A DNA stretch of 64,000 nt from Leucoraja erinacea (Eukaryota), in the NCBI RefSeq assembly GCF_028641065.1, contig NC_073397.1, positions 20,894,001-20,958,000 of the forward strand, written 5' to 3'. Shown piece after piece: positions 35,335 through 61,694 of the stretch. The position numbers and the translations under genes were made by a program. Below the pieces are notes generated by a model that saw only the letters and a list, made by a program, of their open reading frames with translations, did no database searches and was not told the origin of the DNA. Positions within the stretch are counted from its first letter, which is position 1, and every line of letters begins with the position of its first letter.

Positions 35335-35366
35335 TCAATCAAGCTTTTTCATCAATTTCGCAGTGC
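35335..35366 (-). CDS. ADTRP/AIG1-like exon 6 (terminal): G-TAKLMKKLD*
   Basis: Strong acceptor tttttttgttttattgcag; phase matches exon 5; basic KKxx end comparable to the ADTRP and AIG1 C-termini. Confidence 0.7.
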
Positions 35367-35779
35367 CTGCAATAAAACAAAAAAAAACCCATCAAAGCAA
35401 CAGAAAATGGTTCATCAAGTCAATAGATTTAATTGTCATGTACTGACAACGGAACAATTAAATTGTTACTTGCAGCAACAAAACAGTCCTAGAAACACAT
35501 TGCAGTAAACCCTCATTTTAACCAAATCTGTTATAGTCCGAGTTTGTTGTTTCACAGAATGGAGCAAATGGTGTTTTTGAAGCATTTTATCGGTTTAGTT
35601 TAGAGATACAGCGTGGGAACATTGAGTCCGTGCTGTACATCGATCACCCAGACACCATGTGGGAGGAAAAATAGAACCACTGTAATAATTCCATCCTACA
35701 CACCAGGGACAATTCACAGTGTGCAGGATAGAACTACCTCAGTGGTTCTATCTTTCCTCCCACATTGCAAAGACAAAGA

Positions 35780-36640
35780 CTTTGTGACAGTGTGGGTTTC
35801 CCTCAGGCTTCTGGTTCGGGAACACTCATATGATTATTTCTGGAAACACACTACTCCACATATTTTTCCTTATAAAATCAGTAACAATTGTGGCGTATTC
35901 GTTCAGGCCCATTGCCAAGTCCTTGAACATCGCCCAGTCTACCGACTCCATGCAATCACGGAGTCATTTCTCTGCCTGCCCGATCAGCTCTGTGCAGTCC
36001 TCATCACTGGAGCTGCACTCTTCAGTCATTGTATATACGCAAGAAGGAGCACAGCCAGGTGGTCTTAATGCCCAAAGTGAGGGCAAGGGATGGAGCTATA
36101 GCAATCATTAATGGTGGAATAGTAGTGGCTTGTGGTGTTTGATCCTTTAGTGCTGCATAACCTGTGTTGGTGGTAGGTAGGAGGTGACTTCTTCAAATTG
36201 GCCTTATTGTGGTCCCCAGCTATGATGGGAAAGGCATTGGGGTACGTCGTTTGGTGTTTGTTGACCATGGTGTGCAGCTCCTCCAGTGCTAGATTAATAA
36301 ATGCCTGGGGCGGGATGTAGACCGTCGTCTTAATGTGGAGGTAAATTCCCTTGGGAGGTAGAAGGGACAGCACTTCACTGCTATATATACAGGTGCGGAG
36401 AACAGGAGTGGGACATTACTGTTACATCTGAGCACCATGAAGTGTTTAAGAAGAAGCTGATGCCTCTAGCTCTCCCTTTCCCTAGTACCACCGTTCGGAC
36501 CATATGATGAATGGAGAAACAGAATAGGCAGCATTCCCTCATCTCTCTTTGGTAAAGCAGCCTTTTCCTCAAGTTCCCAACCTTATTTTCCAGGGACTCA
36601 TAGTATACTGACTGCAACAAAATCAAGAGCATTGGAAGAC
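35780..36640 (-). mobile_element. Rex1/Babar LINE endonuclease fragment in intron 5
   Basis: SLENKVGNLRKRLLYQREMRECC; TVYIPPQA; IIAGDHNKANLKK. Confidence 0.75.
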
Positions 36641-36984
36641 TAATATATATAATCTAAGAAATGCTTGTGGTAATTTATCAGTTATCTGTTTGAGGGTGCA
36701 AATCACTTTATGATATCCTAGAAATGTTCCTAAGTTAGGCATAATACAAGTCTGATACATATACAGCTTCCCTTAAATTTTAACCCTTCTCAGTCCAGTA
36801 TCTTGGTCCAGTATCAGTGTCTAAGTATCTACTCTTTTTACTGAATATTACACAGAATCCTTACAGCATAAATCCAGGAATATAGCATGTGGTTGGAGCA
36901 GCGAGGGATAAATTGCATCTAAATCAGCTGCCAACAACGGTGAGAAAGTACTCTAGGAAGTGGGTGTAATGCAAATCGAATGAA

Positions 36985-57625: not shown

Positions 57626-58307
57626 ACTCCCTCCTTCTCACTTGCCTGTTAACACCTCCTTCAGTCATTTTTTCTACTTACCTACATTACAGGTTAATTT
57701 ACTGTGGCCAGTTAACTTGGTGGTACATATTTGGGATGTGGGAGGAATCCCATGTGATAACAGGGAAATCATTCAAACTCCACACAAACAGCACCTGCGG
57801 TCAGGATTGAACTTGGGTCCCTGGGATTGTGAGGCTGAAAGGTAGAGACTATGGGGACTGTATCTGTGATATTGTCAGTTTCTCCGATGAAAGTACAGAT
57901 TAACTACTAATGATTAATGTTTATATCCTACACAGAGACTCAGAATAATTCCAGAGATCGGAACGCCCACGAAGGAGACATCAAACATGACTGCTCCATC
58001 TGAGGACAATAAAGCAGACATGAATACTGAGAGATAACCAAGAATCAGCAACTCAGAGCTTCTTTCTACAGTCCCATAGACTTGGCCAGTCGGGTTTAAA
58101 TGATACACCACCCACCTCTACGGTTATTGTTCAACTGAAGGTTTATCCCCTTCTCAACCGAGCTCCCCTCGGACAATTTGTTCTCTTTTATCTGTCCAAC
58201 AAGGACTTCATCAGAACTCTTCAACCAGCCAGCAGGGATCTTCTAAGGCCTGTAATTTTTCTCTGCCTGACTCTACATTAGGTCTCCAAACATCGCAATC
58301 AAAGAGA

Positions 58308-61300
58308 ATGGGCAAAGCTCAACTCCAGAATGTAAAGGATCCATCTCTACCACATCCATGTCAAACTGGATCCAGACTAAAACCTACCCATAAAACCACT
58401 GGAGACCACTCTCCTCTCTGTGCACCCGGGTTACAGCCTTTCCCCAATTCACCTGGACTTCACGTTACCTCTCCAGTCACTCGACCTCAAACTGCTCCTG
58501 AAACCACCAGTTCCCAATCTACCCCTTCAGTTCCCAAGCTGAAACCAACTCTCTGTACTACTGGACTTGAACTACCACTCCAAACCTCATCATTCCAACC
58601 TCTTTCCCATACCTTTGGGCTCTATCCTTTGCCTCAAACCGCCAGGATCCACCCTGCCTCAAAGTCTCTTGGTCTACAAACTTCTCTTCATGACCCCAGT
58701 CTCCAATCTTACCTCCATCCCTCAAAATTCGACCATCTCCCTCTAACCCCAGGGCTCCAAACTCCCTTCTTTACTCTCAGGCTCCAACTTCCCACCCAAA
58801 CCTTAGAGCTCCAATGTCCCCCGCATATCCCAGAGCTCCAAACTTCCCCCTGTACCCCCAGATTCCAATCTTCCCCACAAACTGCTGGACTTCCAACAAC
58901 CTGTATCTCTGGGGTCCAACATCCCTACCAGAGCCCAGAGCTCCAAATGCCATCGTTTACGAAAGAGCTCCATATAGTCCAGCTTCCAGAGAATGTTCAG
59001 CAAAACAAAGCAAATGGGCAGAGAAAATTTGTGTGCAATGAATGTGGGAGGGACTGTGCAAAGCGCAGTGCTCTTGAGAAGCATATCCGGTCTCACACTG
59101 GAGAGCGTCCCTTTCCATGTATAACCTGCGGGATTTCTTTCAAAACGCAGAGTAACCTGTATAAACATAATAGGACACAAAGTCATTTGCACAACTGCCA
59201 GCTTTCTGCTGAATTGGTGAGAAGCAACAGGCTAGAGTTGAGTCAGGTGAAGGACAATTTTCCTTGTGAAAATACAGATCAGGAAACAAAAGGAAATTGT
59301 CACATTGACCTGCTTGTGGCTAACTCCAGCAGTGTTGGTCATACAAAGAAGCAAGATTTCACAAATATTGTGCAACGGGATACGTGTTGGAGGAGGGTCC
59401 ATGCTACTGACAAAAGGGAGGATGGCTCACTGGATGGAGAGAAACAGGGCAATGTCCAGCAGCAACTTGGCCAAATGGGAAACAGGCATTTGGTTCTACA
59501 GAGACAGCAGGCCACTTATTTTGCCAAACAGTGGGTACACAAGTCTTCGAATTCCAGTGTACAAACCAATGAAAGCACAGACTCAGGGTACTTTTCCCAT
59601 TCAGACAGTCCTGACCAGCCACAACAGAGTCTACAACACCAGAGCACTGACACAGAGTCAGAGAGGTGCTCTCAGTCCAGTCAGCAGTGGTCAAGTGTCG
59701 GGCAAAGTGTACTGGAGTCAGCCGTGGATGACAAAGCCCTGCAAGGCATGCACCATCCTCCACGTGGTATACAAGAGCTGGAGGAGAGGATCTCAAAGCT
59801 CATCTCTGACAACAAGGCCGTGGTTGACGACAAACATTTGGAAACTGTGCGGCCAAGAAAGACACTTAATTCAAAGCAAGGGAGCATTGATTTACCAATG
59901 CCATACACGTTTAAGGACTCCTTTCACTTTGACATGAAACCTGTTCAAGTCAACAAGAAATCAAGAGTTCCCTCCAGTTTACCAGCATTCACTTACCAAC
60001 TAACACACAAGTTCCCCTCCTTGCCGGATCAGGTTTCCTCTACTGTTGCTTGTTTGCCCATTATAAGGAGCAACTCTGCGCCAGTTAGTAAGAGATGTCT
60101 GATAAGTAATGAAACCGGCAATAGTTCAAGCTCTCACCATCAAGTGATACAAAGGAAATCCACCACCATGTCGCTTGTCACAGACTTGCAATCACACTCA
60201 TTGGACTTCCATCCCCAACAGCATCGAACCCTGGTCAGGCAAACCGCTCTTGAGAGTTTGCCAGCAGGTGGTCTCACCACAGAAGGGCCCAACCCCATTG
60301 TTAAAAATAAGATGTGTAATTCCAAGGTTGAACAAGTTTCAAAGCACAAGTGCAGGTCTTTAGTTAAGAACAATGACCAGAAAAAGCTGAAGAGGTTTTC
60401 ACATGAGAAGTGGTTGATATATGGAGAGGAAACCTTCCGAAAAAAATACCAGGAGCCAAAGGGAGCTACCCACTCTGCTGAGCCACCCGCCTCACACACA
60501 AAGCGCCCTCACAATGTCAAAATGCCAGACAAAGGCATTTCAGTACTCTCTGAGAATCCACACATCAACCCCCTGGCATCATCTTCTGCACAAAAAGTTC
60601 CCGTTCCAAAACACCTTTCAGATGCACTTCCCTTAGCGTCAGTGAAGGTCACAACTTTCAACACCCCAATGTGCCAGGTACAATTTTCACAAAAAAATGT
60701 GGACCAACATTCACCACAACATGAATATCCAGTTCCCTACCATAATGCTAAAGAGACAAAGGCTCCACTAATCCCAGACCGTTCATGGGAAGTACCTGCA
60801 ATTAAATCAGCAGAGAAGCCCAATAGAGGTGAAGGAACGGGCAAGATAACTGCATCACACAATGCTCAAGAAACTGTTGGGGACATGGGGAAGGAACTTA
60901 CTCTCCATCAACGATCACCTACAGTGAGTGGCCAAACATGGAATGATGCTACAAGACCAATGCAAACGCATTTAACACATCCAAAGTTGGTGAGGCAGCT
61001 CAGCATTCTTGTTCCAGAAGGCAAACAAGAAGGAAGAAGTCAAGAAGAGCATAAGCTTCATGAATTTAGGTTGCAGAAAGGTGAAGATGGTAAGTTAGAG
61101 TTTCCGTCAGGAATACCACCCAGGAAGAAGCAACGGCTGAAAGTAGCTGGCACTGGACAGTCAGCAAAGACGCTACAAACTGGTTGTGGTTTGCCAGTTG
61201 GGGCTGTTCTATGTGAGTCACCTCAGTCAAACTGTGACTTCATCCCAGACACCACCCATGAGTCATATCAAGTAATCAAGTGCATGAAGTGGAAGGAGGA

Positions 61301-61694
61301 AGGAAACTCTGTTGAACAGCCTTTGACATCAACAGTGTTCAGTAGTTTTACTGCCGCTGGCTCCTCTCCTTATGACTGTTCTAGTTCTTTGCCAGAGCAA
61401 GAGGCAACACTTTCTATATTCCCCTCCCTTCATTTACAGTCATTTTCAGTGGGCAAAAGTAAAAAGAAAGAAGCAATTAGTCAAGGGGGGTTTCCAACAC
61501 TATTGCAAACAGCTGGAAATCATATAAACAATGTTGGCAAAAACTTACATGTGGGAGTAAGCATGGACCAATGGGAAGCTATTGCATCTCCCCAAGCTGT
61601 GGCTCACCCCTTGCTGAAGCAAGATTTTCTTCCAAAATATCAACTCAAATGGACAAAGAAAGAACCGACTTCACCAAGCCACTCACCGTCATGA
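58308..61694 (+). CDS. ZNF831: Zinc finger protein 831 (HIVEP/Schnurri-related), large coding exon, 1128 aa
   Basis: Two C2H2 fingers [56 protein letters not shown]831-type blocks [65 protein letters not shown]; candidate acceptor ...ctctacattag at 58281, 26 nt before the ATG. Confidence 0.9.
58317..58975 (+). repeat. Degenerate coding 27-bp (9-aa) tandem repeat, about 22-24 units
   Basis: PGLQPFPNS / PGLHVTSPV / TGLELPLQT / FGLYPLPQT / PGLQTPFFT / PELQTSPCT / PELQMPSFT. Confidence 0.75.

What the first reader, a model, noticed from the sequence alone, without database searches (positions are those of the whole stretch)
35335..61694. Intact third ADTRP/AIG1-family lipid hydrolase, head-to-head with ZNF831: candidate ohnolog missing from the human locus
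Seen: six GT-AG exons (159/150/102/116/152/32 nt) splice into an uninterrupted 236-aa multi-pass membrane protein. It keeps the WKYLT Thr and the NHAMH His, ends in KKLD (a KKxx ER-retrieval-type motif), and is transcribed away from ZNF831. Known: AIG1 and ADTRP are atypical Thr/His hydrolases of FAHFA lipids. In human, ADTRP is head-to-head with HIVEP1 and AIG1 with HIVEP2; ZNF831 is the HIVEP-related gene of the EDN3/PHACTR3 paralogon, and I know of no such neighbour there. The protein mixes AIG1-like ([15 protein letters not shown]) and ADTRP-like (WLNHAMH, GEKLHHWRWG) features. Inference: a third whole-genome-duplication copy retained in cartilaginous fish. It may already be auto-annotated as ADTRP-like or AIG1-like.
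Basis: partly seen in the sequence, partly recalled or inferred. Interest (0 to 1): 0.8.

Follow-up and report, generated by a model that had tools for sequence, protein, structure and literature searches.

The report
Skate AIG-L (adtrp1), known third paralogue
This is an intact, spliced skate gene for AIG-L, an already published third member of the AIG1/ADTRP membrane-enzyme family that placental mammals lack; it likely breaks down signalling lipids as its two human relatives do, and it is likely the genome-duplication twin of ADTRP.

Summary
Six GT-AG exons give a 236-aa PF04750 protein, and contigs of 4 of 4 laid runs skip all five introns exactly. It is not new. The protein is identical to RefSeq XP_055508339.1 (little skate adtrp1) and matches thorny-skate XP_032897540.1 at 230 of 236 residues. 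Huang et al. 2021 (PMC8394805) classify that protein as AIG-L, a third vertebrate clade beside ZNF831 that eutherians lost. AIG-L is not confined to cartilaginous fish; zebrafish adtrp1 is its orthologue. The genome also holds ADTRP and AIG1 beside their own HIVEP and endothelin genes. Nesting inside either clade is rejected (AU p=0.002 and 1e-5). Thr49 and His138 match the catalytic Thr/His pair, and the predicted fold's best match is TMEM164 (Z 13.4), so lipid-ester hydrolysis is likely but untested. One modest addition: lamprey AIG1 and the neighbouring HIVEP genes suggest AIG-L is the second-round twin of ADTRP, not the ancestral copy as the paper prefers.

The parts
42020..42178 (-). AIG-L coding exon 1 (159 nt; ATG at 42178; Thr49 codon 42034-42032, the predicted nucleophile)
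   Evidence: contigs reach 42202-42205
41412..41561 (-). AIG-L coding exon 2 (150 nt)
41002..41103 (-). AIG-L coding exon 3 (102 nt; His135 codon 41010-41008)
   Evidence: 102 nt also in the own-genome ADTRP and AIG1
39751..39866 (-). AIG-L coding exon 4 (116 nt; first codon is His138, equivalent to human ADTRP H131 and AIG1 H134)
38792..38943 (-). AIG-L coding exon 5 (152 nt)
35335..35366 (-). AIG-L coding exon 6 (32 nt; ends KKLD, then TGA)
34513..35334 (-). Likely 3' UTR; AATAAA at 34531; contigs of three runs end at 34513, 34523 and 34575 (weak hint; a repeat interrupts coverage near 35080-35125)
42001..42500 (.). CpG-island-like stretch over exon 1 and the region just upstream (GC 0.63, CpG observed/expected 0.91)
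58104..61694 (+). ZNF831-type large exon: 1196-codon open frame with one C2H2 finger pair, diverging from AIG-L
   Evidence: the name rests on gene order in PMC8394805 supplementary data 2 and the adjacent endothelin-3-like exon
11725..14232 (-). PPP1R3D-like open frame with a CBM_21 domain; same order and orientation as ZNF831 <> AIG-L > PPP1R3D in Callorhinchus

Best explanation
The gene is the skate orthologue of AIG-L (zebrafish adtrp1), an intact, spliced third vertebrate AIG1/ADTRP paralogue, whose protein is predicted to be a six-helix membrane enzyme that likely hydrolyses lipid esters such as FAHFAs. Shown here: the gene structure, the splicing, the orthology, the conserved Thr49 and His138, and two sister loci in the same genome. 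Inferred from the human enzymes and TMEM164: Thr49 attacks the ester bond with His138 as the general base, forms an acyl-enzyme intermediate inside the membrane, and water releases the fatty acid. The C-terminal KKLD likely keeps the protein in the ER. The gene likely arose with the HIVEP/ZNF831-endothelin-PHACTR block in the vertebrate genome duplications, most likely as the second-round twin of ADTRP, and the fourth copy beside HIVEP3 was likely lost.
For: Identity: 236 of 236 residues equal P0001 = XP_055508339.1, and 230 of 236 equal XP_032897540.1, which Huang et al. list as AIG-L. Splicing: all 5 introns skipped in 4 of 4 runs laid. Three PF04750 loci in the genome (9 matches from 21 of 21 candidates scored). 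Four HIVEP-type finger loci (C21, C2, C8, C26), each with an endothelin match downstream on the same strand. The window protein groups with chondrichthyan AIG-L at SH-aLRT/UFBoot 99.4/100, while the own C2 and C8 genes fall in ADTRP (76/76) and AIG1 (97.5/99). Nesting in ADTRP (AU p=0.0018) or AIG1 (p=1e-5) is rejected. Among the 95 best hits, Thr49 is T in 94 (one row lacks the region) and His138 is H in 95. T47/H131 and T43/H134 are the human catalytic residues (PMC8123165 passage), and in the human sequences printed these are the WKYMT/WKFLT Thr and the second His of NHAMH/NHGMH. The model (pLDDT 85, pTM 0.83) matches TMEM164 at Z 13.4, rmsd 3.5 A, 186 residues aligned, next row Z 8.3. A preprint aligns the TMEM164 Cys/His pair with the AIG1 Thr/His pair.
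Against: No activity was measured here, and searches found no assay of any AIG-L protein (open-access library only). Substrate specificity is carried over from proteins only 43-44% identical. The in vivo data on the zebrafish orthologue concern vessels, blood formation, tfpi and Wnt, not lipids. AIG-L as a whole is not a supported clade in my trees (13 of 14 rows grouped at 80.8/31; lungfish outside), and the paper also calls it paraphyletic. The AIG protein tree alone does not settle the duplication order: AIG-L+ADTRP (p=0.36), ADTRP+AIG1 (p=0.54) and AIG-L+AIG1 (p=0.09) all survive, and the free tree joins ADTRP with AIG1 at 90.7/79. Foldseek found no match at E<=0.001, and a Z near 13 is the level the tool flags as reachable by helical bundles. 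ER residence is untested; 68 of 95 homologues have KKxx or KxKxx, but many simply end in lysine runs.
Confidence: 0.8

Rival explanations
1. The same gene and catalytic pair, but the enzyme prefers a different lipid or transfers the acyl group to another lipid (a transacylase, like TMEM164) rather than acting mainly as a FAHFA hydrolase.
For: The top structural match is the acyltransferase TMEM164, and the superfamily varies in nucleophile and acyl donor (preprint passages). AIG-L has been kept beside two other paralogues across most jawed vertebrates, which suggests a distinct role.
Against: It has Thr, not Cys, at the nucleophile position, and both tested paralogues are hydrolases. Identity is 7% to TMEM164 against 43-44% to AIG1 and ADTRP.
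Confidence: 0.13
2. The main job is non-catalytic: a membrane regulator of TFPI and Wnt signalling in vessel and blood development, as reported for zebrafish adtrp1.
For: Morpholino knockdown of zebrafish adtrp1 lowers tfpi and disturbs haematopoiesis and vessels, with partial rescue by human ADTRP mRNA.
Against: Thr and His are almost invariant in 95 homologues. CRISPR knockout mice for Aig1 and Adtrp showed raised FAHFAs and no abnormality, per PMC8394805. The fish data are morpholino-based. A catalytic and a signalling role are not exclusive.
Confidence: 0.05
3. The gene is a moved or recently duplicated copy of ADTRP or AIG1, or a pseudogene.
For: Database names call orthologues ADTRP-like or AIG1-like. 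AIG-L is weakly supported as a clade.
Against: Both other genes sit at their own HIVEP loci. AU tests reject nesting. 94 of 94 top hits score higher against the window protein than against the own ADTRP or AIG1 (these hits were selected by the window protein, so this shows only that a separate large group exists). The frame is intact and spliced.
Confidence: 0.02

Closest known systems
AIG-L clade of Huang et al. 2021 (PMC8394805), e.g. Amblyraja radiata XP_032897540.1, Callorhinchus milii XP_007882691.1, zebrafish adtrp1 (zgc:112175)
   Same: 230 of 236 residues identical to the Amblyraja protein, 55% to Callorhinchus, 50% to zebrafish adtrp1. Same position, diverging from ZNF831, with EDN3 beyond it and PPP1R3D on the other side as in Callorhinchus.
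   Different: Nothing of substance. The paper's Amblyraja gene order omits ZNF831 and PPP1R3D. My reading of the duplication order differs from the paper's preferred one.
[quoted passage not shown]
   Same: Identical 236-aa sequence.
   Different: The name suggests ADTRP orthology, which the tree and gene order do not support.
Human AIG1 and ADTRP, Thr/His FAHFA hydrolases (PF04750)
   Same: Same Pfam family, same Thr and His positions, same intron phases 0/0/0/2/1, and 102- and 116-nt exons 3 and 4 in the skate paralogues.
   Different: Separate paralogue, 43-44% identical to the skate AIG1 and ADTRP; absent from eutherians per PMC8394805; activity not measured.
TMEM164 (PDB 9lw1), Cys/His phospholipid acyltransferase of the proposed ATGY superfamily
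   Same: Best structural match, Z 13.4, rmsd 3.5 A over 186 residues; the shared six-helix core and nucleophile/His geometry were already proposed.
   Different: 7% identity; Cys nucleophile; reported metal site and acyl transfer, none of which was tested for AIG-L.

Membership tests
AIG1/ADTRP family (PF04750) | Far-17a_AIG1 domain over most of the protein | tested here: met
   5 of 5 exons scanned hit in order, profile 5-206 of 206
AIG1/ADTRP family (PF04750) | Conserved Thr nucleophile and His at the positions of ADTRP T47/H131 and AIG1 T43/H134 | tested here: met
   Thr49 and His138 are invariant columns in 20 of 20 aligned sequences; positions mapped
AIG1/ADTRP family (PF04750) | About six membrane-spanning helices | tested here: met
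   Hydropathy plot and all-helical model with pLDDT 85; a prediction, not a measured topology
AIG1/ADTRP family (PF04750) | FAHFA hydrolysis and fluorophosphonate reactivity that depend on the Thr and His | not testable with these tools
   Needs a bench assay; none found for any AIG-L
AIG-L clade (Huang et al. 2021) | Groups with proteins the paper lists as AIG-L, outside ADTRP and AIG1 | tested here: met
   Sister to Amblyraja AIG-L, with Callorhinchus AIG-L at 99.4/100; nesting in ADTRP or AIG1 rejected
AIG-L clade (Huang et al. 2021) | Lies beside ZNF831 and EDN3, transcribed away from ZNF831 | tested here: met
   against the gene orders
AIG-L clade (Huang et al. 2021) | Coexists with separate ADTRP (HIVEP1 locus) and AIG1 (HIVEP2 locus) | tested here: met
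   C2 ADTRP 250-290 kb from a HIVEP finger exon and C8 AIG1 about 300 kb from one. Head-to-head on C8; on C2 the complete copy is assembled on the HIVEP strand next to an assembly gap
AIG-L clade (Huang et al. 2021) | All jawed-vertebrate AIG-L genes form one clade | tested here: inconclusive
   80.8/31 for 13 of 14 rows; trees constrained to make it one clade are not rejected
ADTRP orthologues | Nests in the ADTRP clade and lies beside HIVEP1/EDN1 | tested here: not met
   AU p=0.0018; another gene holds that locus
AIG1 orthologues | Nests in the AIG1 clade and lies beside HIVEP2 | tested here: not met
   AU p=1e-5; another gene holds that locus
TMEM164-type acyltransferases | Cys nucleophile and acyl transfer between phospholipids | tested here: inconclusive
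   The fold matches; the nucleophile position is Thr by alignment with AIG1; acyl transfer cannot be tested here

The most novel reading that the evidence does not exclude
AIG-L is not the ancestral AIG gene but the second-round duplication twin of ADTRP, while AIG1's twin beside HIVEP3 was lost. This reverses the order preferred in PMC8394805. It would explain why zebrafish adtrp1 (AIG-L) and mouse Adtrp share vessel and TFPI phenotypes: the two twins split one ancestral job, and placental mammals kept only ADTRP. Support: lamprey AIG1 joins jawed-vertebrate AIG1 at 99.7/100; a tree with ADTRP and AIG1 as sisters excluding it is rejected (p=0.0003); the neighbouring HIVEP exons pair C21+C2 against C8+C26 (UFBoot 91, 97, 90); a preprint reports edn1/3 and edn2/4 groups.
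Probability: 0.7. Interest if true: 0.3.

Novelty: already known. Interest (0 to 1): 0.16.

Why it matters
As a discovery it matters little: the gene, its locus and its loss in placental mammals were published in 2021, and the exact protein is in RefSeq. Two practical points remain. Database names mislead, since 'adtrp1' is not the orthologue of human ADTRP, and this affects how zebrafish models of this coronary-disease gene are read (a point the paper already makes). AIG-L also appears to be the one vertebrate family member without a published enzyme assay in the library searched, so its substrate is an easy open test. The likely ADTRP/AIG-L sister relation would correct the published history of the family.

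Tried and rejected
A fourth AIG copy beside the HIVEP locus on C26: no match with PF04750 or with a lamprey query at E<=1 (13 matches from 18 of 18 candidates: 12 at the three known loci, one at E=0.62 on C3 that was not followed). A decayed remnant is not excluded. An intronless retrocopy as source of the spliced contigs: no such locus. A chimera of AIG1 and ADTRP: rejected, because the exon-3 motifs occur in invertebrate homologues. Solved relatives: none by sequence and none by Foldseek at E<=0.001. No listed run is on record as RNA; the label is a guess, so tissue and level of expression are unknown. The ZNF831 5' end and any shared promoter were not mapped. The Atlas look-up for the ZNF831 frame was unavailable, so that name rests on gene order. 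A second finger pair of HIVEP type was not found between the window end and the endothelin exon, though it is present on C2. The careful mixture-model tree did not finish; one search shows the quick tree, which agrees. The AU test on the HIVEP quartet failed on a file error, so only site counts (8:4:4, 7:3:1, 4:2:0) and bootstrap values are reported. No RPEL (PHACTR) match was found on C21 among 17 matches. Parsons 2016, Ertunc 2020 and Wang 2017 were not held and are known only through citing papers. No earlier finding of this scan lay near this place.
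Full report
Observation. Six minus-strand exons of 159, 150, 102, 116, 152 and 32 nt, joined at five GT-AG introns, give 711 nt and a 236-aa protein ending KKLD. All 5 exons long enough to scan hit PF04750 in order. Exon 1 lies in a CpG-rich stretch. 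Of 24 runs listed, four from four studies were laid, and contigs of all 4 skip all five introns at the predicted places. Three runs give single contigs of 786-944 nt with almost no differences; X11 is a related organism with more. The runs' RNA label is a guess, but spliced contigs, with no intronless copy found in the genome, indicate mRNA. On the plus strand a 1196-codon frame with one C2H2 finger pair starts 15.9 kb from the ATG, so the genes diverge; a shared promoter is not shown.

Identity. The spliced protein equals P0001 letter for letter, which is RefSeq XP_055508339.1, little skate 'androgen dependent TFPI regulating protein 1'; the window is therefore likely from that species. The same cluster holds Amblyraja radiata XP_032897540.1, identical at 230 of 236 residues. 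Huang et al. 2021 (PMC8394805; I read abstract to conclusions, the figure legends, supplement part 1 of 66 and four supplement searches; figures not seen) divide vertebrate AIG genes into ADTRP, AIG1 and AIG-L. They list this Amblyraja protein as AIG-L, place tetrapod AIG-L between ZNF831 and PRELID3B, and report its loss in eutherians, Neognathae and Percomorpha with no pseudogene left. Their Callorhinchus order, EDN3 < ZNF831 <> AIG-L > PPP1R3D, is the order here: a CBM_21 frame at 11725-14232, AIG-L, the finger frame, and an endothelin-3-like exon 10 kb past the window end (the ET-3 likeness is my recall of the human peptide). A whole-word search for AIG-L with ADTRP found only this paper.

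Distribution. The best 120 of 291 hits begin with 95 vertebrate or unnamed proteins, from sharks, rays, chimaera, bichir, sturgeon, gar, teleosts, coelacanth, lungfish, amphibians, crocodilians, a turtle and palaeognath birds. No named eutherian or neognath protein is among them, and no marsupial AIG-L appeared in my list either. Zebrafish adtrp1 belongs to this group. Retention is thus general among jawed vertebrates, not a cartilaginous-fish trait.

Paralogues in the same genome. PF04750 finds three loci: C21 (the window), C8 and C2. Spliced in scripts, C8 gives AIG1 (92.5% to stingray AIG1) and C2 gives ADTRP. All three share intron phases 0/0/0/2/1 and exons of 102 and 116 nt, and are 41-44% identical to each other. 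The window's finger pair finds four loci at E<=1e-12, on C21, C2, C8 and C26 (150 of 4387 candidates scored). Each has an endothelin match downstream on the same strand, and RPEL matches occur on C2, C8 and C26 but not on C21. This is a fourfold block with AIG genes on three copies and none detected on C26. AIG1 is head-to-head with its HIVEP. The complete ADTRP is assembled on the same strand as its HIVEP, but exon 1 is present twice in a 28-kb inverted duplicate whose edge lies at a 100-N gap, so its orientation is probably an assembly artefact; in Amblyraja it is head-to-head.

Trees. In a 45-row quick tree and a 34-row LG+F+G4 tree (223 columns; rows hand-picked from about 460 fetched proteins, one or two per lineage), the window protein sits with chondrichthyan AIG-L (99.4/100), the C8 gene in AIG1 (97.5/99) and the C2 gene in ADTRP (76/76). 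Forcing the chondrichthyan group into ADTRP (p=0.0018) or AIG1 (p=1e-5) is rejected. AIG-L as a whole has weak support (80.8/31, lungfish outside), as in the paper.

Duplication order. The paper prefers AIG-L against AIG1 at the first round and AIG1 against ADTRP at a gnathostome-only second round. In my tree the lamprey protein that the paper itself calls AIG1 (XP_032829735.1) joins jawed-vertebrate AIG1 at 99.7/100, and a tree with ADTRP and AIG1 as sisters excluding it is rejected (p=0.0003). The AIG1 line therefore predates the lamprey split. The AIG proteins do not choose among the remaining roots (p=0.36, 0.54, 0.09), and the free tree leans to ADTRP+AIG1 (90.7/79). The neighbours do favour a pairing. 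The C8 and C26 HIVEP exons are each other's best match (435-479 bits) and the C21 frame scores best with C2; an unrooted quartet gives C21+C2 against C8+C26 at UFBoot 91, 97 and 90 for three column filters, with the caveat of a long C21 branch. A preprint (10.1101/710475, two passages read, supplements closed) reports edn1/3 and edn2/4 groups from hivep and phactr trees. I infer that AIG-L and ADTRP are second-round twins (about 0.7).

Mechanism. A review gives T47/H131 (ADTRP) and T43/H134 (AIG1) as the residues needed for FAHFA hydrolysis (PMC8123165, passages). In the human sequences shown these are the Thr of WKYMT/WKFLT and the second His of NHAMH/NHGMH, which are Thr49 and His138 here. 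Both are invariant in a 20-sequence alignment and present in 94 and 95 of 95 close homologues. The predicted model is all-helical (pLDDT 85). No solved relative was found by sequence or Foldseek, but the wide structural search puts TMEM164 (9lw1) first at Z 13.4 against 8.3 for the next row. This link is known: a preprint aligns the TMEM164 Cys123/His181 pair with the AIG1 Thr/His pair in a shared six-helix core (10.1101/2022.07.06.498872, passages), and the cryo-EM paper reports an acyl-Cys intermediate and a metal site (PMC12830759, passages). I could not measure the Thr-His distance in my model. The likely mechanism is Thr attack, an acyl-enzyme intermediate and hydrolysis in the ER membrane; every catalytic step is inferred. 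The primary papers were not held. Searches for AIG1+ADTRP+FAHFA+threonine (8 papers), AIG-L+ADTRP (1) and adtrp1+hydrolase (4) showed no assay of an AIG-L protein (listings, plus the passages named above and PMC13360439 passages). The functional data found for this clade are zebrafish morpholino studies on vessels, blood, tfpi and Wnt (PMC6404433, passages; PMC8394805 introduction).

Verdict. It is already published as AIG-L and annotated as adtrp1. What remains is a likely correction of the duplication order and an unassayed enzyme. Interest 0.16.

Noticed in passing
G000:C2:24845000-24977500 (L014-L020, L034-L041): ADTRP exon 1 occurs twice, at 24857546 (+) and 24965891 (-), inside a roughly 28-kb inverted duplicate of 91-98% identity whose inner edge lies at a 100-N gap (24952260-24952359). 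As assembled, the complete ADTRP is not head-to-head with HIVEP. Likely a mis-oriented contig with an uncollapsed haplotype; a real inversion is not excluded.
   Followed up: partly
G000:C21:20967540-20968279 (L069, L070): The endothelin-3-like exon has a 104-nt, 97%-identical partial copy about 650 nt upstream, with two changed residues in the mature peptide and no intron break at the usual place. Probably a non-functional local duplicate.
   Followed up: partly
G000:C8:20674525 and C26:26164395 (L067, L068): All four copies of the block keep an endothelin exon, including the one beside AIG1/HIVEP on C8; the human counterpart of that locus has none (recalled).
   Followed up: no
window 11725-14232 (-): The PPP1R3D-like frame is 835 codons long, with a long stretch of imperfect short repeats (GxGQITQST type) before the CBM_21 domain, much longer than the mammalian protein as I recall it.
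   Followed up: no
window 14000-16400: GC-rich stretch (0.58 over 14001-16000) just upstream of the PPP1R3D-like frame, probably a promoter island, possibly shared with another gene.
   Followed up: no
G000:C21: No RPEL (PHACTR3) match was found on C21, while C2, C8 and C26 have them. The published Amblyraja order also lacks PHACTR3 here, whereas Callorhinchus has it. Possible loss or relocation in skates.
   Followed up: no
PMC8394805 supplementary data 2 versus data 1: The lamprey accessions are labelled oppositely in the two files: XP_032829735.1 is under AIG-L in the synteny file but AIG1 in the gene list, and it groups with AIG1 in my tree.
   Followed up: partly
P0004 and P0057: Chiloscyllium (354 aa) and Stegostoma (381 aa) AIG-L models are much longer than usual; P0004 has a long unrelated C-terminal tail in place of the short lysine-rich end, probably an alternative or mis-predicted last exon.
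   Followed up: no
window introns, 36870-37730 and 40027-41461: Very high contig depth marks common transcribed repeats inside the introns and 3' UTR of AIG-L.
   Followed up: no
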